Source of the DNA: a virus
Lineage: Duplodnaviria > Caudoviricetes
Reading direction: 5' to 3' (one strand)
IMG/VR virus record: IMGVR_UViG_3300012665_000962
Coordinates: 1-64,000 of that record
Length of the DNA stretch: 64,000 bases
The notes under the pieces are model-generated. The model saw only the letters and a program-made list of their open reading frames with translations. It was not told where the DNA came from and searched no databases. Below, one piece after another: positions 1,798-44,099 of this stretch (position 1 is the first letter of the stretch; each line of letters starts with the position of its first letter). A program made the translations under genes and the position numbers.

Positions 1798-2594
1798 TGT
1801 GTCAACATCCGGTAAGCCGAGCCATCACGCATTTCGGAAATATGAAATTGACCATAGGCTAGATGGCAAGCCCACATAAATCTTTTGTCGTCTTCTGGAT
1901 AATATGGTGTTTCTATTTTAGAAAGATCCTGTAAACTAACAGGGCTAGCAGCATTACATGGAGCTAGAGTAAATGTTGGTATACCATAGAAATTTGCTTC
2001 AGTAGCAGCATTAGAATTGAAGGTCACAAGGGCAAACACATCGTCGTCTAGTGCTTGTTGTAGTGTAGAATTTTTAATTCTGTCAATTCTATTAGGTGCC
2101 CTTTCTCTAATTTCTACAGGTCTATCTGTGTAATTTTTAATAACATTTACAGTTTGATCTAACCATTCTTGTTTATCTATACCGTAAAATTTACATGGTT
2201 TTTCATCGGGTGCCGCGACTAAAATTTTTCGTCCAGTCTTTTTCCATGAATGTATTGGCTTTTTAAATTTGTCAAATCTGTCCGATGGACGTGGAATAAT
2301 TTCTCCGTGTTGTAGATTATTCTTTACAATACGATGCCAATACTTCCAGCCATTGGGATTTGTGTTAGTGCGCTCATTACCAAAGTAACCTGTGTCTATG
2401 TAGAAGAAATCACGACCGATATCCCAACACTTTTTCATTATTTTATGTTTTAGAATGCCTCTCAGGACAATAGGATCACTGCTGTTTTCAAAAACAAAAT
2501 CATCGATGCGAACAGTAGTACGACCGCACCCTCTAGCAAAGATATTAATGTATTCGTCGGTGCCGTCTTTGGTCAAAAATATCCAATTATTCAT
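1794..2594 (-). CDS. Capsule polysaccharide synthesis (KpsS/KpsC-like) protein, paralog of 853-1797, 266 aa
   Basis: LVTFNSNAATEANFYGIPTF motif; same C-terminal LAY/ISM-x-Q/H-F/W...E.R.G.A pattern as neighbour; ATGA overlap. Confidence 0.5.
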   Translation of the reverse strand: MNNWIFLTKDGTDEYINIFARGCGRTTVRIDDFVFENSSDPIVLRGILKHKIMKKCWDIGRDFFYIDTGYFGNERTNTNPNGWKYWHRIVKNNLQHGEIIPRPSDRFDKFKKPIHSWKKTGRKILVAAPDEKPCKFYGIDKQEWLDQTVNVIKNYTDRPVEIRERAPNRIDRIKNSTLQQALDDDVFALVTFNSNAATEANFYGIPTFTLAPCNAASPVSLQDLSKIETPYYPEDDKRFMWACHLAYGQFHISEMRDGSAYRMLTQ

Positions 2595-4719
2595 TTTTAA
2601 AGCCTTCCCAGAATGTTGTTCTAGTCAGACTCTTTTTGCCATCTTCGTCAACAAGAGCACGGCCCATGAGATGTGTAGTAATTTCCATTTTTATATGATA
2701 ACCATTAATAGCATTGTCTGCTGGCAAGTAGGTATTTTTGTATACTTCTAATAATTTTTTAGCAGCATGTGGTTTTATAGCATATCCCATTGCTCCCGGC
2801 ATTGAAGATTTTGGCCAAGTCTCTACAAAAGGTCTTCCATCGACGGCGTTTAGATAATCCCAATAGTCTGCGCTTTTGGTAGGATGTCCTATGGCTACAA
2901 TTAACACATCGTCAAATGTCACAGGCGTATACCCCCTAGATAACACAACATCGTCTTCAAAAATCATTATAGGTTTGTCGAGTTCTACACACTTCTTCCA
3001 TAGATTATAGTGACTCAAGAAGCAACCTTTTACTCCGGGAGTTTGTGCTTTTAATACACTCTTATCTTCTGGATTAAACAAACTATCTGGGCCTTTTATT
3101 CCCCACGGGTGTACAGTCCTGCCCTCTTGTTCCATTATTTTAACAGCATCTGTGCCATACACACCATCTGATAAATGTGCGGCAATCCCGTAAGATTCTA
3201 ACGAAGCTTTTAGATTGGTGGCGGTCTTTAGACTATGCTCAATCTTTGGAAGATGTATGATATATGCTTCCATATCTGTTTCTTTTTCCTTAACTATGTC
3301 GTTGTATTCGTTCATCCAGTTATCGCTGTACTCACAGTTGCGATAATTCTTAAACCAAGGGCCGCCTTCGGTATAATGTATGGCCTTGGGTTTGCCGTTG
3401 TTAGGCTCACGATACCAATTCACTAGCCAATTCCATTCAAGGTTTATTTTTCCAATTAAATTGTCTGACAGCCACATGAATCTATGTAAAAATTGACCAG
3501 ACTCAGTGTTAACCAGTTCCGGAGTTAACGCACGATTGGCAGGATGACCACAGTTCCAAAGAATCATTGAACTCCAATTCTTTCGTGGATAAGGTCTTTG
3601 TTTTGCTCCGTCCATTTTTTCACCCTCTGGCGGAGTATAGTCATGATGTACGCACATCACAGCGTATTTGTCATCTGCTTGGGCAAATAATTTTTCTATG
3701 TCATCTACAAATAAAAAATCACAGTCACAGAATATTGCCCAACCTTGATAGTTAGAAAGATACGGAACTAAAAAGCGACTAAAAGTAAATTCTGTACTAG
3801 AATATTTGTCAGGTGTGCGCCAATACAGGTTTTTATCTTTTAGTTCTTGTTGCTTAATAGGAACAACTTCAACAGATTTATTGTACTTTTTGATACTGTG
3901 TTTACACACTTGATAGGCAATGTCTTCTCGGCTATCCCAACCAACAAAAACTGTTTTCTTTTCAATACGTTCTATATCTTCTTCTACACATCGTTCGCCG
4001 TATTGTACTTCGACAATTTTACAAGGAACATTGTAAGGATTATACAAACGATGCCAGTTATGTTGTGGTATTACAATCTGTTCTAAGGTATCTAGTGTCT
4101 TATCTGGCATTCTATATCCAGATGGCATTAGTTGTTCTACTACACACTTGCCTTCACTAACTATCCAGTACTCGGCTCTGTGTTGGTGTCTTTGCATAGA
4201 TAGACTTTGCCCAGGCTCAACTGTAAGCTCTTTTACTTTGACATTTGGAGTGTCGTGTAATACACGGTAATATCCCCATACTCTGCCAGTTTTAGGAGCC
4301 TTCCATTCTTGTAAAATCCATGAACTTGAATTTGCTTTGTTATCACCGCCTACAGCAAATTCAAAAAATACGTTATCATCATTAATATCCATTTCTGGAA
4401 TATTTTTCTTTGTTCGATCACCACCGTTGGCAAATATTATAGTATCGTTAGGAAACAATGCTCTAACTTGACGAATACAGTCTTTGGCTGATCCGTCTTG
4501 GTCGTCAAACTCAAGTACTTCATCTACTTGTTTGAGATTTTGTATTACCAAAGATCGCTCTGTCCAAGGCATGAATGATCTGCCTTTTTTCTTTGCTAAC
4601 CAATTGTCTGAGTTTAGCCCTACAATTAGTTTATCGCCTAATTGCTTTGCTGCGTCAAAATATGCTATATGGCCTGAATGGATTGGGTCAAAGCCGCCCG
4701 TAACTATTACTATTTTCAT
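2587..4719 (-). CDS. Four-domain fusion: HldE/TagD-like nucleotidyltransferase + cupin (mannose-6-P isomerase C-terminal-like) + GT8-like + GT25 glycosyltransferase, 710 aa
   Basis: GGFDPIHSGH (HIGH-type); WGYYRVL...SMQRHQHRAEYW...HNWHRLYN (cupin); VFVGWDSRE...STEFTFSRF...FCDCDF...RKNWSS...IHYTEGGPW (GT8-like); AYIIHL...CFLSHYNLW...IFEDD (GT25). Confidence 0.8.
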   Translation of the reverse strand: MKIVIVTGGFDPIHSGHIAYFDAAKQLGDKLIVGLNSDNWLAKKKGRSFMPWTERSLVIQNLKQVDEVLEFDDQDGSAKDCIRQVRALFPNDTIIFANGGDRTKKNIPEMDINDDNVFFEFAVGGDNKANSSSWILQEWKAPKTGRVWGYYRVLHDTPNVKVKELTVEPGQSLSMQRHQHRAEYWIVSEGKCVVEQLMPSGYRMPDKTLDTLEQIVIPQHNWHRLYNPYNVPCKIVEVQYGERCVEEDIERIEKKTVFVGWDSREDIAYQVCKHSIKKYNKSVEVVPIKQQELKDKNLYWRTPDKYSSTEFTFSRFLVPYLSNYQGWAIFCDCDFLFVDDIEKLFAQADDKYAVMCVHHDYTPPEGEKMDGAKQRPYPRKNWSSMILWNCGHPANRALTPELVNTESGQFLHRFMWLSDNLIGKINLEWNWLVNWYREPNNGKPKAIHYTEGGPWFKNYRNCEYSDNWMNEYNDIVKEKETDMEAYIIHLPKIEHSLKTATNLKASLESYGIAAHLSDGVYGTDAVKIMEQEGRTVHPWGIKGPDSLFNPEDKSVLKAQTPGVKGCFLSHYNLWKKCVELDKPIMIFEDDVVLSRGYTPVTFDDVLIVAIGHPTKSADYWDYLNAVDGRPFVETWPKSSMPGAMGYAIKPHAAKKLLEVYKNTYLPADNAINGYHIKMEITTHLMGRALVDEDGKKSLTRTTFWEGFKNE

Positions 4720-27789: not shown

Positions 27790-28176
27790 ATGCAGAAACA
27801 TGCCGGTATACTTTTTATTTCAAAAAAATCTTCTAGGATTTTCCTTCTTTTGAATGACGGAAAATGGATTGTGCCTACATTTATTCGGTCGCAGTCTGTT
27901 ATAGAAGATGCTACTCCAGTTATCAAATCATATTGCGATAAAGAATCAAAATTAATCCCAATTGAATTGTATCTAAGTCAAGACCAAGGGTTTGAATTTT
28001 CTACATATATCTGTTTAATTGATGACGATTTTACGGCTAGCAACGATGCTTCTTATTGTTGGGCTGCGTTAACTAACCTTCCAAAAAATCTACATAGCGG
28101 GTTGAAGTCGACACTGGCAAATAAAATAATTCAAACTAAAATAAACACAATATTATTAATGGGGAAAGACCTATGA
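27790..28176 (+). CDS. NUDIX-fold-like protein with degenerate Nudix box
   Basis: AGILF.S....RIFLLL..GKW.VP and Y.W...NLPKNLH.GL resemble NUDIX flanks, but GX5EX7REUXEEXGU is absent; start moved from TTG 27775. Confidence 0.45.
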   Translation: MQKHAGILFISKKSSRIFLLLNDGKWIVPTFIRSQSVIEDATPVIKSYCDKESKLIPIELYLSQDQGFEFSTYICLIDDDFTASNDASYCWAALTNLPKNLHSGLKSTLANKIIQTKINTILLMGKDL

Positions 28177-28430
28177 CATTCTTAACTATTAAAAATAATG
28201 CTCAGTTTAAAAAAGATTTTGATCGATTTAAAGAAGTTATAGATCAATTAGACGGTGACAAAAAAGCTCAAGCTGAAAAACTTTTTCGTCGATTTACAGA
28301 TGCTGTAAAAAGAATTGACGACACGTTGGAAAACGTTGCTTGGGCTCCAATTAATTATTCTTTTCATGTTGACGCCCGAGCCGAACTCAACAAACTTAGA
28401 GTCGATCTAGAAAATCTTTTACCGAAATAA
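28173..28430 (+). CDS. Hypothetical helical protein, 85 aa
   Basis: ATGA overlap with upstream gene; convergent overlap with hldD. Confidence 0.6.
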   Translation: MTFLTIKNNAQFKKDFDRFKEVIDQLDGDKKAQAEKLFRRFTDAVKRIDDTLENVAWAPINYSFHVDARAELNKLRVDLENLLPK

Positions 28431-29268
28431 ATTGGTAATTCCCAATTACTGATTTTAATTTTTCTATATCAGCACAGGTGTATGTTTGATACTGACCTTC
28501 CAATTCAGCAGGAAATTCAATTTCTTTTATTGAAGCATTATATTTTTTAGCAACAAGATCGGCTACATCCTTAAAAGAAATAACTGTGCCTGTACCTAAA
28601 TTGAATATACCGCTGTGCCAATGACCTACTGACAATTTAATATTAACAATATCTTCAACACAGACAAAGTCTCTTAGAAAATTCTCACTGTCTTTGAATA
28701 CAAATACAGTTCCTTCTATCTGAGCCTGTTGAGAAAACTTGTGTATAGGACTTGCCTGCGATCCTTTTTGTTGTTCGCCACTACCGTATACATTAAAATA
28801 TCTCCAGCCTTGTAACTTAGCTCTGGGATTTTCTAATAGCTTAATAGCTGTGTAGTAATCTATATCGGCTTTGCTTTGTGCGTACAGCGATCTAGGATCA
28901 AGAGGTTGATTTTCTTTAAACACTGGCCCTGCTCCATACACACTAGCAGAGCTAGCATATGATAAAAGAAAATCATGTTCAATTGCCTTATCTATAAGAA
29001 AAACTGTAGGATTTTTATTTTTTCTTTGTATTAGATTTTTATCACGTTCTGTTGTACTAGATATTGCGCCTTCGTGATAAACAACTTCAACTTTATTCCA
29101 CTCGTTAAATTTGTCATAGAACTCGTCAATGGTAAGCCATTTAGCATAAGACAACTCTGTATTAGCACGAGCATTGTCAACACAGATAATGTCAGTACGA
29201 CCTAGTTTGTTTAGGCCATGGACTATATTAGATCCTATAAATCCTGCTGCGCCAGTGACTACAATCAT
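28396..29268 (-). CDS. hldD: ADP-L-glycero-D-manno-heptose 6-epimerase
   Basis: VTGAAGFIGSNI, HEGAISSTTE, YASSASVYG, YAQSK, RYFNVYG, RDFVCVED, YQTYTCAD; start moved to ATG 29268 (ATGA overlap). Confidence 0.85.
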   Translation of the reverse strand: MIVVTGAAGFIGSNIVHGLNKLGRTDIICVDNARANTELSYAKWLTIDEFYDKFNEWNKVEVVYHEGAISSTTERDKNLIQRKNKNPTVFLIDKAIEHDFLLSYASSASVYGAGPVFKENQPLDPRSLYAQSKADIDYYTAIKLLENPRAKLQGWRYFNVYGSGEQQKGSQASPIHKFSQQAQIEGTVFVFKDSENFLRDFVCVEDIVNIKLSVGHWHSGIFNLGTGTVISFKDVADLVAKKYNASIKEIEFPAELEGQYQTYTCADIEKLKSVIGNYQFISVKDFLDRL

Positions 29269-29756
29269 CCTAGTGTCTTCTCCAGCCAAGTTTTACAATT
29301 AGGCCAATCTCTATAAATGTGTGCCTGACCACCAGCTTGGATCCATTCCTCGCAATTTGAGGTTCTGTCGTCGATTAAAATGTCACCTGCGTTACGGCAG
29401 TGCATGTGTTTTTCATAACTGTAAGGGCCAAGAAATACTGGAATGTGTGGAAAATTTTCAAATGCCCAAAATACTTTATCCTGTGGAGCCCACGGCATGT
29501 CATTGCCTTTGGGAATAGCACTTAAAAAATACAATCCACAGTTTGTTTTTGTTTTGTAATCAGTAACCCATTCTACTAGTTCGTGGGCTCCTTCCTTTAT
29601 TGGCAGCTTACTATACATTCGTTGATCATCTTTAAGTCTGCGCCAAGTTGTTTCGGGCAGCATATCGCCATCTTTAAACAACGGTTCTTTAAGGTATGCT
29701 CTAGCATATCCAAACCAGTCAGCTACTACATCGTCCATGTCTAGGTAAATGTTCAT
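29265..29756 (-). CDS. HAD phosphatase, 5'(3')-deoxyribonucleotidase-like, 163 aa
   Basis: IYLDMDDVVADW motif I, QDKVFW, ILIDDR motif IV. Confidence 0.8.
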   Translation of the reverse strand: MNIYLDMDDVVADWFGYARAYLKEPLFKDGDMLPETTWRRLKDDQRMYSKLPIKEGAHELVEWVTDYKTKTNCGLYFLSAIPKGNDMPWAPQDKVFWAFENFPHIPVFLGPYSYEKHMHCRNAGDILIDDRTSNCEEWIQAGGQAHIYRDWPNCKTWLEKTLG

Positions 29757-30151
29757 GACAGCGTACCTTCACCGTCTGGTGGTAACACTACCTGACTGTC
29801 ACCAGGAATAATTCTGTAATTGTCTTCAACAGAATCTGCGGTACTCACTTCAAAAATCATTGCGTTCGGTGTCAATGCTTCTAGTTGGTGTGGTTGTAAT
29901 GGAGCATTATGCCAAGTGTCACCGGTGTTGAGTTCTTTTTCAAAAAGAATTGCGTTGCTGGTATCTATCCATCTAACTTTAAACTTTCCAGTATTAACAA
30001 ACCAAGTTTCTACTTTGTTTTTGTGAAAGTGCATGCTAAACTTGGCACCTACTTTTGTGAAGCATAAAATTTTTCCTGTATAATGCTCGTTGGTGGCAAA
30101 TATTAATTCGTAGCCCCACCCTTTTTCTTGATAACCTTGTAATTGTGTCAT
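29753..30151 (-). CDS. Cupin sugar isomerase-like protein
   Basis: EKGWGYE, FSMHFH..K.ETW, P.QPHQLEA, FEVST.DS.EDNYR..PGD; start moved to ATG 30151 (ATGA overlap). Confidence 0.75.
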   Translation of the reverse strand: MTQLQGYQEKGWGYELIFATNEHYTGKILCFTKVGAKFSMHFHKNKVETWFVNTGKFKVRWIDTSNAILFEKELNTGDTWHNAPLQPHQLEALTPNAMIFEVSTADSVEDNYRIIPGDSQVVLPPDGEGTLS

Positions 30152-30897
30152 TTTATTTCCTTTAAATTTGGAGCATAACAACCTACGTGTTGTACTGTTA
30201 TTGACGCAGCTTTGTTAGAAAAATCTACAGCAGATGTAATTTGTTTTGTTTCTAGATACATATACGCCAACGCAGCTAGAAATGTGTCTCCAGCTCCAGT
30301 AACATCTACTACTTCTACCGCAGGAGCAGAAGAAGAAAATTCATGATGTGGTATTACTGCGCCTTTAGCACCTTTGGTAACTATTAATCCTGTGCACTCA
30401 GATTTAATTTTGCTGTATTCTAATTCATTAATTTTAACCCAAGCACCTTGAAGTCGTTCTAGATCTGTTTTCTTTGTGTCAACAAACACAGGAATTCTAG
30501 TAGCAATAGCTTCTTCAATAATATCGTAAGACACTGTGCCTTTATCGTAGTCGCTGATAACAATAGCATCATAGACTTTAGGTATTGCTGTTTCAAACTC
30601 AATAGGCTGTGAAACAACATCATTGTCTATTCTAACAATCTGTTGCTTACTGCGAATATCTACCAGTCTAGTCTTTGTACTAGTTTCTCCATGTAGGTAG
30701 TTTACGTCACAGCCTAGTGCTTCTAAATTACAAGCAACATTACCAGCCATACCCGGACTGTGTTCTTCGTGGCTAAACTTAAACACTGGCACAGGTGCTT
30801 CCGGACTGATTCTATCTACGGTGCCGTATTGATATATGTCAAGGCAGTTGTCACCGATCAATAATATCTTGAATTTTTTCTGTTGTTGAATATCCAT
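30148..30897 (-). CDS. HldE/RfaE kinase domain (PfkB family), heptose-7-phosphate kinase-like
   Basis: IGD..LD.Y.YG.V.RISPEAPVPV, GMAGNVA.NL, TKTR, VISDY.KG, DVTGAGDTF; start taken at ATG 30897. Confidence 0.85.
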   Translation of the reverse strand: MDIQQQKKFKILLIGDNCLDIYQYGTVDRISPEAPVPVFKFSHEEHSPGMAGNVACNLEALGCDVNYLHGETSTKTRLVDIRSKQQIVRIDNDVVSQPIEFETAIPKVYDAIVISDYDKGTVSYDIIEEAIATRIPVFVDTKKTDLERLQGAWVKINELEYSKIKSECTGLIVTKGAKGAVIPHHEFSSSAPAVEVVDVTGAGDTFLAALAYMYLETKQITSAVDFSNKAASITVQHVGCYAPNLKEIK

Positions 30898-31243
30898 TGA
30901 TTCTTTCAAAAAATACTAATTGCTTACTAACATGTGCGCCTACAATAGGCTTTCCTTGATAGTCGCTGCCTTTAACCATAATATCCGAATTGGCAATAAG
31001 ATCAACAAGTTCTTGTTCTGTATCAAAAACTACCACATTGTCAACTGATCGTAGATGCTGTAACATTGCTACTCGTTCTTGTTGATTGTTTATTGGGCGA
31101 GTTGGGCCTTTGAGTCTGGCTACTCTAGAGTCAGAGTCGATGCCAACAGTGAGATGGTCACCTAAACTGCGAGCATATTTCAGCAGTTCTAAGTGTCCAA
31201 TATGTAAAATATCAAAGGTGCCGTTAACAAATATTCGGGTCAT
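30851..31243 (-). CDS. HldE/RfaE nucleotidyltransferase domain (heptose-1-P adenylyltransferase-like), 130 aa
   Basis: NGTFDILHIGH, VGIDSD.RV..LKGPTRPIN...ER, VKGSDY, GYSTT. Confidence 0.85.
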   Translation of the reverse strand: MTRIFVNGTFDILHIGHLELLKYARSLGDHLTVGIDSDSRVARLKGPTRPINNQQERVAMLQHLRSVDNVVVFDTEQELVDLIANSDIMVKGSDYQGKPIVGAHVSKQLVFFERINGYSTTEKIQDIIDR

Positions 31244-31248
31244 ACTAT

Positions 31249-31278
31249 ATTTTATACGGTATGACCCTAAGATGTCAA
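31249..31278 (-). promoter_or_regulatory. Sigma70-type promoter for the heptose operon, likely leaderless
   Basis: minus TTGACA-16 nt-TATAAA or 18 nt-TAAAAT, then 5 nt to ATG 31243 with no SD. Confidence 0.65.
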
Positions 31279-31282
31279 CAGT

Positions 31283-34200
31283 TTAGGCTTGAGCTTCAGA
31301 CCAACGTAAAATAATATTTGCCGGAACTGCTGTTCCTGAAACTTTATACACGTTAATGGCCAAAACGTCAGGGCCATTTGGGAATGTGCCACGACCACCA
31401 AGTGCGGTAGTTGTCAATTCTTTTAAACTACTTAAACTCAGTGCGTCTGTAGATCCTGGATTGGTAATAAACGAAAATATAGTTTCACCTGGTAACGCAA
31501 ATGGTGGTAAACCAAATTGGAATTGTACAGTATTCCCGCCTGCTATAACCGCGTTTGTTGTCTGTGTAAATGTCACAGTATAATACGTGGTGCTGGCAAA
31601 CGTTTGTAAAGTGCTTACTGATTGTACACGAGTACCAGCTGGAAACTTAGTTTCTGTTGTGGCAATTTCAGTGTTTGACGATGCTCCTGACGCTTCCCAA
31701 CTTGCTTGTGTAAAGTAAATTGTAGAAGTGTTAGCTGTAGATTGTGCCAACGAAAACGTAATATTATTGGTGTTGTTGACCGCAGATGTTGATGCTCTAC
31801 TAAACGACAGAGTGTAATACAATGTTGTGTTAAACGTTACAGTGCCACTAGCAGAAACTAGAGCAGTATTTCCTGCGTTGAAAGTCACAGCATAATAGCT
31901 AGTTCCGGCAAATGTTCTTAGTGCGCTCACAGAGCTAATTTGAGTTCCTCCGCCAAACTTACCATCGTTAGTTGTTTGCCCCGCAATGATGTCAACTGGA
32001 AGAGCTGCCCAACTTGCCTGTTGGAAGAAATGTATGGTATTTCCTATTGCTCTATTACCAGCAAATCTAAAAGAATTAAACTCGTTATTATTACTAAATC
32101 TTAGTGTAGCAGTACTAAAAGAAACAGTATAATAGCCGCCGGTTGGACCGGATACGGCTGTTACATATGTACCGTCAACAAATAAACTAGTATCATTGGT
32201 GAAAATATCTGTAGCAATTGTAGAACCTTGTAAAGTTGCCCAACTTGCTTGATAATAATACAACACAAAACTTCCAGAGTTTACATTAAATACCCGCTGT
32301 GTTGAAGATGACAGTTGCGGCAACGTTGTTGCTGTAGGTGTTGGACTAAATGCTCTATTAGTTACCGTGGTTCCTGATGGAAATTTAGCATCAGACACTG
32401 TTTGTCCTACTACCGCGCCAATACTATCCCAGCTAGTTCTTGTAACATATGCTATAGATGTTCCTGAGCCTCTATTAAAAGCAGCACCTGTTGGCACAGT
32501 TGCGTTACCAGTTACGGTGTTAAGAGCAGTGGCTGTGGTAAATGTATACGATCCGCCACCGGCCCAGTTAACAGATCCGCCCGGAGCAATTTGAGCAAAA
32601 CTTGGTTGGCCTCCTTGAGCTAGTCCACTTAATCTACCCCAGGTAATATCGCCTGGGTTTAAAGGATAATTTTGTGGGTTTAATACACCCTCAACAACAA
32701 TTCCACCTGTGCCGGTGTCTGACGCAATAGAAATTTCGTTAAGCAATAATTGAGCTCTGTTTAACAGTTCTCTTTCACCAAGGTCTCCAACTACTGCGTT
32801 TGAAACAGACGGTGCTAGTCGAATTAAAAACACTGTTCTCTTTGTGGTAGAAATTGAGTTACCAGTTGAAGTGTAACTGAACAGATATCCACGGTCTTCG
32901 TCAAATCTTCCGTCAGTTAAAAACGCACTACCCCAGTGGCTAATCAACGGTGTTGTAGTATTTGTTAATAAAATAACTCCGGTTTTTTGAGTGTGGCTAG
33001 TAGCAATACCTGCTCTGTAACTTCTTAATGCGCCCGATTGAAAATTACTTAATTGAGAGCTTCTTACTGCTCCAGTTAATGATGTAGATGTTTTTCCTGT
33101 ATACGATATAAGTTCGTTATCTACATACACTACACCCGAGTCTGGAAAAAATTCAGTCGATTCTAAAGGAACTGTTGTTACTGTTGATGAAATATCGCTA
33201 GTAAGTCTTGATACAGCACCGTAGTTGGCAACTTCATATCTCACTGGCAAGTTACCAGTACGCATGAACGCTTCCGAATTAACGTTGGAATTTCTCATAC
33301 GATGAGCAAACACAAAATTACCGTCACTGCCACGCAGCATAAAATCAATAAATCCAGCACCATACCATGTATATTGAATGCCGATCATCTGCATCTTTGT
33401 GATATCAACTTTGTAGCCACTGGGCCCGGTACCGTCTAATCGATCTCGATTAAACTCGCGTTGCGGTACTCGTTTGTCTGTGACCAAACATATTTTACTG
33501 CCTGTTACTGTGCTTACTCCACGGAAATCTGGGTTAACAGTTATAGAGGTATCTGATGCTACTGTAGTGATCACATGAGTCATACCTTTGACTACCACAA
33601 AGTCGCCAGCTTTAAGTTGATCTAAGAAACGACTGTTTGTTCCTACGATTGTGTTACTGCCCGGAACAGCAGTGATTGTACCAGCTAGCTGTTTGGTTGA
33701 TGAGCGTTGTACTACTGCTAGTTCGTCGCCGTTATATTCCCAAAACATACCGTTCTGATCATCAAATGCTCCTGCCCTTACTACCGCGCCCTTCCAATTT
33801 AATGTAGATACTTGGCAACTAAATCCTAATGTTGGGATTTTTGATCCTAATCTTCTTAGCGCAGTTACTCTAAATACTCGCTCGCTGACAACTTCAGTAA
33901 CTGTGTAGTCTTCATCTGGATAGTATTCAGTGTTACTGTCGTATCCTGGCGTCACAACACCAGTAATTCTTACCTTTGCGCCAGTTTGGAAACCGTGGTC
34001 GTTTTCGTCTAATGTAATAGTAATTACTGAACCGACTTCAACACCTTCGGCAACAATATTTTGTATATCGTAACTTGGAGCAAATAACGCACCAGTAGTA
34101 TACATAATACCTTTACCAGACTGGTAACGAATATATTTTTTACTTTGACGTACTGCTTGAACCCCATGTTGCGGACCACCTGTGCCCAATTGTACTCCGC

Positions 34201-41328: not shown

Positions 41329-43158
41329 TTAGCTGTTTTCTATTTTTATTAGCTTGCCATATTCGGGCAAATACAAATATTCAATATCACTGCGCATGAG
41401 CGTATCTATAGCATCGTCTAGAGTTTCGACTAACGGGTCGCCGCCCAAATTAAAGCTGGTATTAAACAAAATAGGAATTCCTGTTTCATCTTTAAACGCT
41501 TTAATTAAATCATAATAGTGTTTATTTTGCTCAGGGTTAACTGTTTGGATACGACAAGTATGATCTTCGTGAATAATACTTGGAATTTTTTCTTCAATTC
41601 CGGGCTGACAATTTACAGCATACATCATGTGTGGGCTATTTTTCATACCACGCAAATCAAACCACTCGTGTACATCCTCTTCTAAAATACTGCCCGCAAA
41701 CGGACGGAAGTATTCGCGATGTTTTACTTGATTTACATAATCTTTTCCATCTGGAAATGTAGGATCAAACAGCACACTACGATTGCCCAATGCTCTTGGA
41801 CCGTTTTCTGAACGCCCCTGGAATATTGTAACAATATTCTTTTCACGTAAGAGCTTAACAACATCTTTGTGTGTGGCATCAGTCAGCTGGCCGCTGGCAA
41901 ATTTAACTTTTTCTTCAATTTCAGTTTGCGTGTACGTATGAACTGGGCCAAGATATAATGTATCAAGTTTTTGGATTGTGTTGTTATCATCTAGAGCATG
42001 CCAGAACATCAATGCTGCTCCCATGGCTGTACCAGCATCGTTTGAAATTGGTTCTACATAAATTTCAATGCCTTCTTTTTTAAGATGTTCCAAATAATAA
42101 TAATTGGCTACACAATTTAAACCATACCCGCCGCTGATTACTACACGCTTTTTGCCGCTCATTTCAACAGCTTTTCGAATCAAGGTTAACACCTGTTCTT
42201 GTGTTTCAGTCTGTACAGCATAGGCCATGTCTCTACGATTTTGTAAAGTAGTAACATCAGTTTTTTCATCTTCTGGATTTTCATTTAAAAAATCAAAAAG
42301 ATTTGCGTTAACTGTTGAACTTGACGGATACATCGGAACAATCAAGTTTCTGTTTGACACAGGAAACTTTGAGTTAGATTCAAATAACTTAGGTATCTTG
42401 TCGTTGGGCTTACCGTATGGGAATAATCCCATAGTTTTTCCTGCTTCGATTGCTGTGAACCCGCAATACTCAGTAACACCTTCGTAGGTTTTAACAATGC
42501 CAGCTCTGTCAGTAACCCATGCTTGGTGAAATTCTCCAGCTTCGCCAAATTGCTCAGACGAAAGTTTGTCATAATATTGCGCTGGAATTCCTTCGCGGAC
42601 TCCGTAATGTTTATACAAAGTAGTAAACTGCGAAGGATACGAACAATTAATAATCGACTCTACTTCATAACTCCATATTTGTTGATTGTCATAGGACAAT
42701 GGAATAAATGTTCCAGCGCCGTCAACAATCAACGCAACCGCTTCTTCCCATCCTGAACGATAAAATGCGCAGGCAGCGTGTAGTTTGTGATGTAAGAAAC
42801 TAAGATCAATAACCTGCGGGTGATTATACAAATTAGCTTTACGATCAATCAAACCCATTTTACGAGCAAGGCCTGTATATACATCGTCACCGGTATAGTC
42901 AACTCGACCGGCAGTATCGTTTAATTTTTGTGTATGAGCAATTACTAGATAATCTAATTTATTAGTATACTCTAAAATTTTCATTATAGAAGCATAGGGA
43001 CCACCGTCGTACTTGTGACGTGTTAGTCTTTCTTCTTCTATAGAAAATACAATTTCTCCGTCTTTTAATAAACACACCCCAGAATTGTGGCCACGTGCTA
43101 TGGCTGCTATCCAGCCTGTTTTTAATTTAGGAGTTAAGTCTTGTTGTTCACTATTCAT
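41329..43158 (-). CDS. O-carbamoyltransferase, NodU/CmcH/TobZ family, 609 aa
   Basis: HNSG..L, EEERLTR.K, HH..HA, DGAG, AGKTMGL.PYG, SGG..LNC.AN, DAG.A.GAA, E.GPRALGNRS, K.RE.FRPFA, NTSFN. Confidence 0.92.
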   Translation of the reverse strand: MNSEQQDLTPKLKTGWIAAIARGHNSGVCLLKDGEIVFSIEEERLTRHKYDGGPYASIMKILEYTNKLDYLVIAHTQKLNDTAGRVDYTGDDVYTGLARKMGLIDRKANLYNHPQVIDLSFLHHKLHAACAFYRSGWEEAVALIVDGAGTFIPLSYDNQQIWSYEVESIINCSYPSQFTTLYKHYGVREGIPAQYYDKLSSEQFGEAGEFHQAWVTDRAGIVKTYEGVTEYCGFTAIEAGKTMGLFPYGKPNDKIPKLFESNSKFPVSNRNLIVPMYPSSSTVNANLFDFLNENPEDEKTDVTTLQNRRDMAYAVQTETQEQVLTLIRKAVEMSGKKRVVISGGYGLNCVANYYYLEHLKKEGIEIYVEPISNDAGTAMGAALMFWHALDDNNTIQKLDTLYLGPVHTYTQTEIEEKVKFASGQLTDATHKDVVKLLREKNIVTIFQGRSENGPRALGNRSVLFDPTFPDGKDYVNQVKHREYFRPFAGSILEEDVHEWFDLRGMKNSPHMMYAVNCQPGIEEKIPSIIHEDHTCRIQTVNPEQNKHYYDLIKAFKDETGIPILFNTSFNLGGDPLVETLDDAIDTLMRSDIEYLYLPEYGKLIKIENS

Positions 43159-44099
43159 TTTTTATGTTTTCCTATAACGGCGTCGACTACATAGTCGACA
43201 ATTTCGGGAGTCATTGTCATAAGACTTTCGTGTTTTCTATCAATGCGTTCGTCCATGGTAATTCTAATAGGACTGTATTCTCGTAATTCTTCGCCCATGT
43301 CTAAAATATTAAAGGTTTTAGCATTTGGATAAGAAACGTTTATTGGGTATGTAGACCCAAATACAACCGTAGACTGCTTGTCCATGGCATAGGCAAGATG
43401 CTGCCCTAAGCTGTCGCAGCCTAAAAAATGATCAGCGTATTTTATTACAGCAGCCCATTGTCTAATTCCTACATTTTCTGGGAAAGCAATTTCGTCTTTG
43501 ATATTTTTTTCTTGGGTTAAATCAAGTTTTATTTCGCTCATCATTATCACAGCAAAACCTTTTTCTTGAAGTTTTTGAATTATTTTTTTAACATCTTTAT
43601 ATTCAATACTTCTAGAAGTTCTATCTACAAAAGATTCGTCGAGATATTCAATGCCGCGGCCAAATGGCTGAAACACTATTACTTTTTCTTTTTTTAGTTT
43701 CTTTTTAACTTCGCTGATTAACTGACGGCCAGCAATTAATTCATCTTTGCTTAGGCGTAATGTAGGCTTTGGCAGTTCTCTAACACCTTGTTTATTGATT
43801 TCAATATCAATTGCTTGAGCAATACTACATTTTTGATTGTAATATTCCCAAACACGATAAGGTTCTATGGTGTAGATATCTTTGTCTTTGAGTTTTTCTA
43901 CAAAAAGATTTTTGTGCCAAACATCATATGTCCTAGAATCTAAGGTCGGATGACCTTTGAATACATCCGTGCCGCCTTCGCAGACTATGATAAAATCTTT
44001 ATCACCGGATTCTTGTTCATATTTTTCAAATGCGGGTACTGAACATAACATACGGCCCGCACCGCCGTTGATAAAAAATGCTTTAGAGCGTTTCTCCAT
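43155..44099 (-). CDS. GT9-like (ADP-heptose heptosyltransferase-like) GT-B glycosyltransferase, 314 aa
   Basis: GGAGRMLCSVPA resembles GT9 G.GD....P; AAVIKYADHFLGCDSLGQHLAYA...STVVFGST resembles GT9 DSG..H.A.A......LFG.T. Confidence 0.6.
   Translation of the reverse strand: MEKRSKAFFINGGAGRMLCSVPAFEKYEQESGDKDFIIVCEGGTDVFKGHPTLDSRTYDVWHKNLFVEKLKDKDIYTIEPYRVWEYYNQKCSIAQAIDIEINKQGVRELPKPTLRLSKDELIAGRQLISEVKKKLKKEKVIVFQPFGRGIEYLDESFVDRTSRSIEYKDVKKIIQKLQEKGFAVIMMSEIKLDLTQEKNIKDEIAFPENVGIRQWAAVIKYADHFLGCDSLGQHLAYAMDKQSTVVFGSTYPINVSYPNAKTFNILDMGEELREYSPIRITMDERIDRKHESLMTMTPEIVDYVVDAVIGKHKK

What the first reader, a model, noticed from the sequence alone, without database searches (positions are those of the whole stretch)
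28396..31278. Five-gene heptose operon in which a cupin and a HAD may replace GmhA and GmhB
ADP-L,D-heptose synthesis needs five steps: isomerase (GmhA), kinase, phosphatase (GmhB), nucleotidyltransferase and epimerase (HldD). This operon has exactly five overlapping genes under one sigma70 promoter: nucleotidyltransferase, kinase, cupin, HAD phosphatase and hldD, three junctions being ATGA. No SIS-fold gmhA or canonical gmhB is present in the window. Cupin aldose-ketose isomerases and HAD phosphatases perform the same chemistry as the two missing enzymes. The inference is a complete, non-orthologous NDP-heptose pathway. NDP-heptoses are also ALPK1 agonists in animals.
Basis: partly seen in the sequence, partly recalled or inferred. 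Interest (0 to 1): 0.8.

Follow-up and report, generated by a model that had tools for sequence, protein, structure and literature searches.

The report
Phage heptose operon with cupin isomerase
A large T4-like phage carries a five-gene operon for the activated sugar ADP-heptose in which a small metal-binding cupin most likely does the first step in place of the usual enzyme GmhA; the claim that the neighbouring phosphatase replaces GmhB is weaker, and nothing has been assayed.

Summary
Five co-oriented, overlapping minus-strand genes (28396-31243) follow the best sigma-70-like site in the region. They encode an RfaE-II nucleotidyltransferase, an RfaE-I kinase, a 132-aa cupin, a 163-aa HAD and an HldD-like epimerase. 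No SIS/GmhA or GmhB gene is present in the 76-kb record, nor in a complete 364-kb relative with the same operon.

The cupin reading is well supported by comparison:
- In 75 of the 80 closest viral loci the cupin lies beside heptose kinase genes, and none of the 80 has GmhA.
- It occurs fused to the heptose nucleotidyltransferase and to HAD phosphatases.
- In two bacterial orders where 88-95% of sampled genomes have GmhA, the few cupin carriers are among those that lack it. The two carriers tested still have the heptose kinase.
- Family members weakly match mannose-6-P and lyxose isomerase cupins.

The HAD reading is weaker. The protein is a 5'(3')-deoxyribonucleotidase-type HAD. Most close relatives lie outside heptose operons, often next to dNMP kinase. 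It does occupy the slot that GmhB-like or mini-HAD genes fill in other phages.

No enzyme assay exists. This scan has reached the same reading before on many other genomes. I rate it a new variant of a known pathway.

The parts
31249..31278 (-). sigma-70-like promoter TTGACA-18-TAAAAT, 5 nt upstream of the NT start codon
   Evidence: 11 of 12 matches, the best site in 28100-31500; a consensus match only
30851..31243 (-). heptose-1-phosphate nucleotidyltransferase (HldC / RfaE domain II type), 130 aa
   Evidence: PF01467 E 4.7e-19; TIGR02199 E 2.4e-34 (118 bits, below the 181.5 equivalog cut-off); phrog_7878 E 1.1e-42. HIGH and GYSTT motifs read.
30148..30897 (-). heptose-7-phosphate kinase (HldA / RfaE domain I type, shortened PfkB), 249 aa from the ATG
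   Evidence: PF00294 E 3.1e-22; TIGR02198 E 6.4e-48 (163 bits, cut-off 345); phrog_8133 E 4e-90. GAGD motif read.
29753..30151 (-). 132-aa metal-type cupin, proposed sedoheptulose-7-phosphate isomerase (GmhA analogue)
   Evidence: Conserved H41, H43, E48, H88. AF2 pLDDT 93.7. Neighbourhood, fusions and phyletic pattern.
29265..29756 (-). 163-aa NT5C-type HAD phosphatase, possible heptose-1,7-bisphosphate 7-phosphatase (weakly supported)
   Evidence: DxDxV motif. PF06941 21.8 bits, phrog_2643 E 2.1e-19. Fold nearest 3bwv (Z 15.8) and human cdN (Z 14.5). Context survey.
28396..29268 (-). ADP-glycero-manno-heptose 6-epimerase-like SDR (HldD type), 290 aa
   Evidence: TIGR02197 E 7.5e-73 (245 bits, cut-off 274.6); PF01370 E 7.1e-26. 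GAAGFIGS and YAQSK motifs read.
43155..44099 (-). GT9 (heptosyltransferase family)-like glycosyltransferase, likely consumer of the product (inferred)
   Evidence: PF01075 29 bits (cut-off 22). GT9 plus carbamoyltransferase lie within 8 kb of the cupin in 5 of 80 related loci.
41329..43158 (-). NodU/CmcH-type O-carbamoyltransferase overlapping the GT9 gene (inferred partner)
   Evidence: PF16861 196 bits, PF02543 104 bits. P-SSM2 has a carbamoyltransferase directly upstream of its heptose genes.

Best explanation
The operon is a phage-borne pathway for ADP-glycero-manno-heptose that does not depend on host GmhA.

Proposed steps:
1. The cupin, using a His/His/Glu/His-bound metal, isomerises sedoheptulose-7-P to D-glycero-D-manno-heptose-7-P. 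This is the same aldose-ketose chemistry as cupin phosphomannose and lyxose/mannose isomerases (inferred).
2. The shortened PfkB kinase phosphorylates O1 (homology).
3. A phosphatase removes the 7-phosphate. The in-operon NT5C-type HAD is the candidate, but this step may also fall to non-specific phosphatases (weak inference).
4. The small nucleotidyltransferase makes the NDP-heptose, probably ADP-heptose (homology).
5. The HldD-like SDR epimerises C6'' (homology).

The product is probably used by the phage's own GT9-like transferase and carbamoyltransferase 10 kb away (inferred).
For: - Gene identities.
- Neighbourhood: the cupin has 575 relatives in viral contigs. In the best 80 loci, 75 have a heptose kinase or HldE beside it, 74 have the epimerase and 0 have GmhA. 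The cupin is 66-81% identical to the window's across all but the two nearest loci, whereas in most loci the kinase is only about 30-37% identical.
- No SIS_2 match in 40 whole records. These include three near-complete phages (G002, G013, G017) and the cultured cyanophages P-SSM2 and Sf-CH8.
- The gene annotated 'phosphoheptose isomerase' in P-SSM2 is in fact a mini-HAD.
- Natural fusions: cupin with NT (P0208, P0238, P0271-P0277 and P0280; clusters of up to 93 sequences, seen on up to 28 contigs), mini-HAD with cupin (P0134, P0147, P0156, P0268), and NT5C-type HAD with cupin (P0132, on 3 contigs). The cupin+NT form mirrors bifunctional PMI-GMP enzymes.
- Reverse survey: of 80 GmhA-centred viral loci, 26 have heptose kinase, NT or GmhB genes, and 24 of those lack the cupin.
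- Cellular genomes: 8 of 8 CPR genomes with the cupin (the heptose kinase within 7 kb in all eight, the NT beside it in three) lack GmhA. In the order of G053, 144 of 151 sampled genomes have GmhA, and the only two cupin carriers are among the 7 without (nominal p 0.0019). In the order of G039, 106 of 121 have GmhA, and the sole cupin carrier lacks it. G039 and G053 keep RfaE-I kinases of 315 and 350 bits.
- Affinities: 32 of 77 family members hit PF01050 MannoseP_isomer, 28 hit Lyx_isomer and none hits RmlC-type models.
- HAD slot: it is filled by GmhB-like (25 loci), mini-HAD (12) or NT5C-HAD (2) genes. Of three near-complete genomes, G002 has the NT5C-HAD in the operon and no GmhB, and G013 has GmhB beside the cupin and no NT5C-HAD.
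Against: - There is no biochemical evidence.
- The best structural neighbour of the cupin is the CapF cupin domain, a UDP-keto-sugar epimerase (Z 16.0). The isomerases score lower: TkPMI Z 14.1, lyxose isomerase Z 13.6. 25 of 77 members also hit the CapF-type Pfam model.
- Two viral loci (L176, L217) carry both GmhA and a cupin.
- Cupin-type clusters almost always contain the SDR, while GmhA-type clusters rarely do. That could instead mean the cupin works with the SDR.
- In Terriglobia-type genomes the cupin follows a wecB-like gene, not heptose genes. G053 and G054 share synteny, so they count as one lineage.
- HAD: its fold is deoxyribonucleotidase-like, and GmhB ranks only 29th (Z 10.4). 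69 of 80 close relatives show no heptose gene within 6 kb. 25 lie in the order neck gene, HAD, dNMP kinase. One group lies beside ribonucleotide reductase. 36 of the 75 kinase-linked cupin clusters (41 of all 80 loci) show no HAD at all.
Confidence: 0.6

Rival explanations
1. The cupin is a nucleotide-sugar epimerase or modifier of the CapF/WbuC type. It would act on a keto-intermediate made by the SDR and yield a modified heptose. The isomerase step would be supplied by the host or be missing.
For: CapF's cupin domain is the top structural match (Z 16.0). There are weak TIGR04366 WbuC and PF14667 hits. The cupin co-occurs with the SDR in 74 of 80 loci, whereas GmhA-type clusters mostly lack an SDR.
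Against: CPR clusters keep cupin and kinase (with the NT in three) without an adjacent SDR in most cases. Fusion partners are the NT and phosphatases, never an SDR. The SDR is HldD-like, an enzyme type that by established knowledge does not release its keto-intermediate. This reading leaves complete phage genomes and GmhA-less bacteria with a kinase but no source of heptose-7-P. No RmlC-type match was found in 77 members.
Confidence: 0.12
2. The HAD is an ordinary phage 5'(3')-deoxyribonucleotidase of nucleotide metabolism that merely lodged in the operon. In this reading, dephosphorylation of heptose-1,7-bisphosphate is done by host or non-specific phosphatases. This rival concerns the HAD only and is compatible with the cupin being the isomerase.
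For: The fold is nearest to deoxyribonucleotidases. phrog_2643 matches. 25 of 80 relatives sit between the neck gene and dNMP kinase, and others sit beside RNR. On the tree the operon copies form a sub-lineage of this wider family. 36 of the 75 kinase-linked cupin clusters have no HAD.
Against: ATGA coupling on both sides of the HAD. The slot is the same one used by GmhB-like and mini-HAD genes. An NT5C-type HAD fused to the cupin exists on three independent contigs. G002 has the NT5C-HAD and no GmhB, while G013 has GmhB and no NT5C-HAD.
Confidence: 0.4
3. The operon is an incomplete auxiliary set that boosts a host ADP-heptose pathway and relies on host GmhA and GmhB. The cupin and HAD would have unrelated roles.
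For: The host is unknown and the record is only 22% complete. Many phage GmhA genes also stand alone, without other heptose genes nearby (50 of 80 loci).
Against: The same gene set occurs in cyanophages, and cyanobacterial LPS is reported to lack heptose (PMC4515613 abstract). The cupin is the best-conserved member of the cluster. The fusions and the phyletic complementarity also argue against this.
Confidence: 0.08

Closest known systems
Bacterial ADP-L-glycero-beta-D-manno-heptose pathway (GmhA, HldE or HldA+HldC, GmhB, HldD)
   Same: It has the same three recognisable enzymes (PfkB kinase, cytidylyltransferase-fold NT, SDR 6-epimerase), the same five-step logic, and a GT9-type transferase nearby.
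   Different: There is no SIS isomerase and no HAD-IIIA GmhB. A cupin and an NT5C-type HAD stand in their places. The kinase is about 65 residues shorter than RfaE domain I. All three homologues score below NCBIfam's equivalog cut-offs.
Type II phosphomannose isomerase cupin domain (PF01050) of bifunctional PMI-GMP enzymes, and small archaeal cupin PMIs (PDB 7zvy)
   Same: A metal cupin of similar size. The proposed reaction is an aldose-ketose isomerisation giving the manno configuration. Natural fusion to a sugar-1-P nucleotidyltransferase exists. 32 of 77 family members hit PF01050. 7zvy scores Z 14.1.
   Different: The window protein itself does not reach PF01050 at E 0.01. The first metal ligand is His rather than the Gln recalled for PMIs. 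The substrate would be a C7 sugar phosphate. The NT partner is of the cytidylyltransferase fold, not the GMP fold.
Cyanomyovirus heptose gene set (P-SSM2 PSSM2_308-313, T4-GC 303-308; also S-SSM7, S-CAM1, S-SM2, P-TIM68)
   Same: NT, kinase, small HAD, cupin and SDR sit in one cluster, with a carbamoyltransferase alongside.
   Different: The cyanophage cupins are only 33-41% identical to the window's. Their HAD is a 114-116-aa mini-HAD, annotated 'phosphoheptose isomerase'. Their cupin is annotated 'cysteine dioxygenase' or 'nucleotidyltransferase'.
5'(3')-deoxyribonucleotidase family (NT5C, PF06941; PDB 3bwv, 6g2n)
   Same: Best fold matches for the HAD (Z 15.8 and 14.5). It has the DxDxV motif, and relatives lie in nucleotide-metabolism contexts.
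   Different: It scores below Pfam's cut-off (21.8 against 24.8 bits). Here it is translationally coupled inside a sugar-nucleotide operon.
CapF C-terminal cupin domain (UDP-4-keto-6-deoxy-HexNAc 3-epimerase; PF14667)
   Same: Top structural neighbour (Z 16.0, rmsd 2.8 over 114 residues). It is a metal cupin working in a sugar-nucleotide pathway next to an SDR.
   Different: 15% identity. The PF14667 score is 19.3 bits against a cut-off of 28.7. The cupin here is never found fused to an SDR. Its distribution is complementary to GmhA, which an epimerase role does not explain.

Membership tests
ADP-heptose pathway: HldC / RfaE domain II nucleotidyltransferase | Full-length match to TIGR02199, with the HxGH and ISTT-type motifs | tested here: met
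   E 2.4e-34 over model positions 14-142 of 144, but 118 bits is below the 181.5 equivalog cut-off. HIGH and GYSTT motifs read.
ADP-heptose pathway: HldA / RfaE domain I kinase | Match to TIGR02198 over its length, with the PfkB GAGD motif | tested here: inconclusive
   E 6.4e-48, but in 3 stretches and 163 bits against a cut-off of 345. The protein is 249 aa and the model 315 positions. The GAGD motif is present.
ADP-heptose pathway: GmhA | SIS-fold isomerase (PF13580, PF01380, TIGR00441) present | tested here: not met
   no match in G000, G001 or the complete G002, while the control genomes did match.
ADP-heptose pathway: GmhB | HAD-IIIA heptose-1,7-bisphosphate phosphatase (NF006506, TIGR00213) present | tested here: not met
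   no match in G000, G001 or G002. The operon's HAD has no NCBIfam hit, and GmhB ranks only 29th by fold.
ADP-heptose pathway: HldD | Match to TIGR02197, with the GxxGxxG and YxxxK motifs | tested here: met
   E 7.5e-73 over positions 1-304 of 316; 245 bits, slightly below the 274.6 cut-off. Motifs read.
Type II PMI cupin (PF01050) | Significant match to the PF01050 profile | tested here: inconclusive
   no hit for the window protein.: 32 of 77 family members hit, best E 3.1e-6.: a weak precomputed hit on P0132.
Metal-dependent cupin | Two-motif His/His/Glu...His ligand set on a jelly-roll fold | tested here: met
   H41, H43, E48 and H88 are conserved.: all-beta model, pLDDT 93.7.: cupin matches with Z 12-16.
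RmlC-like sugar-nucleotide 3,5-epimerase cupins (PF00908) | Match to the dTDP_sugar_isom profile | tested here: not met
   not among the families hit by any of the 77 members at E 0.01.
CapF / WbuC cupins (PF14667, TIGR04366) | Profile match above cut-off; fusion or pairing with an SDR reductase | tested here: inconclusive
   19.3 and 20.8 bits, both below cut-off.: top fold match, Z 16.0.: no SDR fusions found.
NT5C 5'(3')-deoxyribonucleotidase (PF06941) | Profile match, DxDxV nucleophile motif and a capped HAD fold like cdN/mdN | tested here: inconclusive
   21.8 bits against a cut-off of 24.8.: best folds 3bwv (Z 15.8) and 6g2n (Z 14.5). Substrate preference was not testable here.

The most novel reading that the evidence does not exclude
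This cupin family is a previously unrecognised class of sedoheptulose-7-phosphate isomerase that has displaced GmhA in hundreds of marine and freshwater phages, in CPR bacteria and sporadically in other bacteria. In this phage lineage a nucleotidase-type HAD has additionally been recruited as the heptose bisphosphate phosphatase. Two of the five steps would then be run by non-orthologous enzymes, and the product would feed a phage GT9 and carbamoyltransferase that decorate virion or host surface molecules.
Probability: 0.3. Interest if true: 0.75.

Novelty: new variant of a known kind. Interest (0 to 1): 0.6.

Why it matters
If the cupin is the isomerase, a missing first step of heptose synthesis is explained for a very large set of phages and for bacteria that have the kinase but no GmhA. 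Routine annotations ('cysteine dioxygenase', 'nucleotidyltransferase', and 'phosphoheptose isomerase' placed on the mini-HAD) would need correcting. Pathway-presence calls based on gmhA would be shown to miss real heptose producers. It would also give a compact, easily assayed enzyme and a clear case of non-orthologous displacement. What these phages do with heptose (virion glycosylation or host surface remodelling) would become directly testable.

Tried and rejected
- Sequence and profile searches of the PDB with the cupin returned only generic cupins such as oxalate decarboxylase and quercetinase. Foldseek was likewise generic. None of these assigns a function.
- A PDB sequence search with the HAD found nothing meaningful.
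- A DNA-level search of cultured phages found only two short matches.
- The search for related loci with the 77-sequence alignment failed for lack of a conserved stretch. A 16-sequence alignment worked.
- I tried to learn whether picocyanobacterial hosts have GmhA by sampling a phylum. I fell back on a review abstract stating that cyanobacterial LPS lacks heptose.
- Pfam scans of longer cupin-containing proteins added little beyond the cupin itself.
- Literature searches for cupin with heptose, GmhA or sedoheptulose-7-phosphate isomerase found no paper proposing this function.
- A pure PMI role (fructose-6-P to mannose-6-P) was considered and set aside, because the epimerase is HldD-like and needs a C6 secondary alcohol.
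- RmlC-type and FdtA-type roles were set aside for lack of any profile match.
Full report
**What is there.** The window is part of a 76,383-bp IMG/VR virus record that CheckV rates about 22% complete. It is a T4-like myophage. It has a gp15-like tail sheath stabiliser, a tail sheath, a large terminase, UvsX and a gp32-type SSB. Close relatives reach 345-364 kb.

On the minus strand, between a 2610-aa virion gene and a convergent plus-strand block, lie five ORFs:
- NT, 30851-31243
- kinase, 30148-30897
- cupin, 29753-30151
- HAD, 29265-29756
- epimerase, 28396-29268

The last three junctions are ATGA overlaps. NT and kinase overlap by 47 nt out of frame. TTGACA-18-TAAAAT at 31278-31249 is the best sigma-70-like site in the region.

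Profile matches make three genes clear homologues of heptose enzymes. These are RfaE domain II (E 2.4e-34), RfaE domain I (E 6.4e-48; the protein is about 65 residues shorter than the model) and HldD (E 7.5e-73). All three fall below NCBIfam's equivalog cut-offs, so they are relatives rather than certified orthologues. The other two genes are a generic cupin and an NT5C-like HAD.

**No GmhA or GmhB.** SIS_2, SIS and the GmhB model find nothing in the window's record. They also find nothing in G002, a 363,943-bp relative rated 100% complete that holds the same five genes at 69-88% protein identity.

**The cupin travels with heptose genes.** It has 575 relatives in IMG/VR. In the 80 best loci, 75 have a heptose kinase or a fused HldE beside it, 74 have the SDR, and none has GmhA. 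The cupin is the best-conserved member of the cluster. Outside the two nearest loci it is 66-81% identical to the window's, while in most loci the kinase is only about 30-37% identical. No SIS_2 gene occurs in 40 whole records, including three near-complete jumbo phages and the cultured cyanophages P-SSM2 and Sf-CH8.

In cultured cyanomyophages a 33-41% identical cupin sits in the known heptose gene set. There the gene annotated 'phosphoheptose isomerase' (114-116 aa) is actually a mini-HAD of the EcbF/BcbF type with no SIS match. Those genomes therefore have no recognised isomerase either. A review abstract states that cyanobacterial LPS lacks heptose (PMC4515613), so a host supply is doubtful. 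That last step is inference.

**Fusions.** Cluster representatives and a search for longer forms show three kinds of fusion:
- cupin with NT: P0208, P0238, P0271-P0277 and P0280, in clusters of up to 93 sequences seen on up to 28 contigs;
- mini-HAD with cupin: P0134, P0147, P0156, P0268;
- NT5C-type HAD with cupin: P0132.

P0132 and P0208 each recur on independent assemblies. The NT+cupin form parallels bifunctional PMI-GMP enzymes, where a cupin isomerase is joined to the pathway's nucleotidyltransferase. That parallel rests on my own knowledge of the family. No fusion to an SDR was seen.

**Complementarity with GmhA in viruses.** Of 80 GmhA-centred viral loci, 26 also have a kinase, NT or GmhB, and 24 of those lack the cupin. 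The two exceptions are L176 and L217. In them, GmhA sits next to a GHMP (HddA-like) kinase, while the cupin sits next to a small NT about 5 kb away, and there is no RfaE-I kinase.

**Complementarity with GmhA in cells.**
- Eight CPR genomes have the cupin with the heptose kinase within 7 kb, and the NT beside it in three. None has a real GmhA.
- In the order of G053, 144 of 151 sampled genomes have GmhA at E 1e-25. The only two cupin carriers are among the seven without it (Fisher p 0.0019). The two carriers share synteny, so they count as one lineage.
- In the order of G039 (an isolate genome), 106 of 121 have GmhA, and the sole cupin carrier lacks it.
- G039 and G053 retain RfaE-I kinases of 315 and 350 bits.

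These are two independent lineages in which the kinase is present, GmhA is absent and the cupin is present.

**Fold and family of the cupin.** The AF2 model is confident (pLDDT 93.7). H41, H43, E48 and H88 form the usual cupin metal set, and several Lys/Arg residues are conserved. Structural neighbours are generic metal cupins. CapF's cupin domain is first (Z 16.0), followed by quercetinase, KdgF, Thermococcus PMI (Z 14.1), lyxose isomerase (Z 13.6) and cupin PGI (Z 13.1).

Among function-specific Pfam models, family members hit MannoseP_isomer (32 of 77), Lyx_isomer (28) and the CapF-type domain (25). None hits RmlC-type models. Fold alone therefore does not decide between an isomerase and a CapF-like epimerase. 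The genomic evidence favours the isomerase.

**The HAD.** Its model (pLDDT 92.7) is nearest to a deoxyribonucleotidase-like protein (3bwv, Z 15.8) and to human cdN (Z 14.5). GmhB ranks 29th (Z 10.4).

Of its 80 closest viral relatives (57-96% identical):
- 8 are beside the kinase and cupin, and 3 more are beside an SDR only;
- 25 lie in the order neck gene, HAD, dNMP kinase, usually followed by the tail sheath gene;
- one group lies beside ribonucleotide reductase.

On a tree, seven of the nine operon-linked copies (the window's included) fall in one supported clade of 11 rows inside this wider family. The family as a whole is therefore not heptose-specific.

Three things favour a pathway role. 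The slot between cupin and epimerase is filled by GmhB-like genes (133-141 bits to PRK08942) or mini-HADs in sister operons. G002 has the NT5C-HAD and no GmhB, while G013 has GmhB and no NT5C-HAD. P0132 is a fusion of an NT5C-type HAD with the cupin. Against it, 36 of the 75 kinase-linked cupin clusters have no HAD nearby, so the step seems dispensable in cis. I put the HAD's role as the pathway phosphatase at roughly even odds.

**Use of the product.** A GT9-like transferase overlapping a NodU-type carbamoyltransferase lies 10 kb away. The same pair is within 8 kb of the cupin in 5 of 80 loci. P-SSM2 has a carbamoyltransferase next to its heptose genes. The acceptor is unknown.

By the STTR5 rule described in PMC11573728, position 5 of the NT's motif is Tyr rather than Arg, so the mark of NTP promiscuity is absent. 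This is a weak hint that the product is ADP-heptose.

**Novelty.** Phage heptose genes and viral heptose enzymes are known (PMC7029224, PMC7378029, PMC11573728). I found no paper assigning this cupin an isomerase role. This scan has noted the same reading on many other genomes. Those are unchecked AI notes and I did not count them as evidence.

**Verdict.** The cupin as a GmhA analogue is probable (about 0.6-0.65). The HAD as a GmhB analogue is possible (about 0.45). Both await assay.

Noticed in passing
window 2587-4719 (-): A 710-aa protein whose first 120 residues are a second RfaE-II-like nucleotidyltransferase domain (phrog_7878, E 1.5e-30). It is joined to phrog_28018 and a piece of 2OG-Fe(II) oxygenase. 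It may be a second sugar-nucleotide enzyme.
   Followed up: no
window 41329-44099 (-): A GT9 heptosyltransferase-like gene overlaps a NodU/CmcH carbamoyltransferase gene. The pair recurs near the cupin in 5 of 80 related loci, and a carbamoyltransferase abuts the P-SSM2 heptose genes.
   Followed up: partly
L082:4646-4990 (P-SSM2 PSSM2_311) and L081:4652-5002 (Sf-CH8): Genes annotated 'phosphoheptose isomerase' are 114-116-aa mini-HAD phosphatases (TIGR01689 EcbF-BcbF) with no SIS match. The neighbouring cupin is annotated 'cysteine dioxygenase' or 'putative nucleotidyltransferase'.
   Followed up: yes
L169-L248 (viral contigs): 50 of 80 phage GmhA genes stand without any recognisable heptose kinase, NT or GmhB within 8 kb. 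What a lone phage GmhA does is unclear.
   Followed up: no
L176:5751-8471 and L217:5748-8471: A GHMP (HddA-like) kinase, NifU/IscA-like Fe-S assembly genes and GmhA sit in a row in two phage contigs. The same contigs also carry an NT-cupin pair about 5 kb away.
   Followed up: partly
L252, L288 and 23 other loci; L321: Close relatives of the HAD sit between the neck-protein gene and the dNMP kinase gene, upstream of the tail sheath gene. In one group they sit beside ribonucleotide reductase and glutaredoxin.
   Followed up: yes
L096:6788-8339 and L097:6568-8342: In Terriglobia-type genomes the cupin directly follows a UDP-GlcNAc 2-epimerase-like gene, recognised by motif only, and is not next to heptose genes.
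   Followed up: no
G380:C1:22424-22786: A cupin copy inside a heptose cluster has one in-frame TGA. This could be a broken gene, a sequencing error or recoding.
   Followed up: no
L330:2539-5602: Some clusters carry two SDR genes flanking kinase, NT and cupin. This hints at further modification of the heptose in those phages.
   Followed up: no
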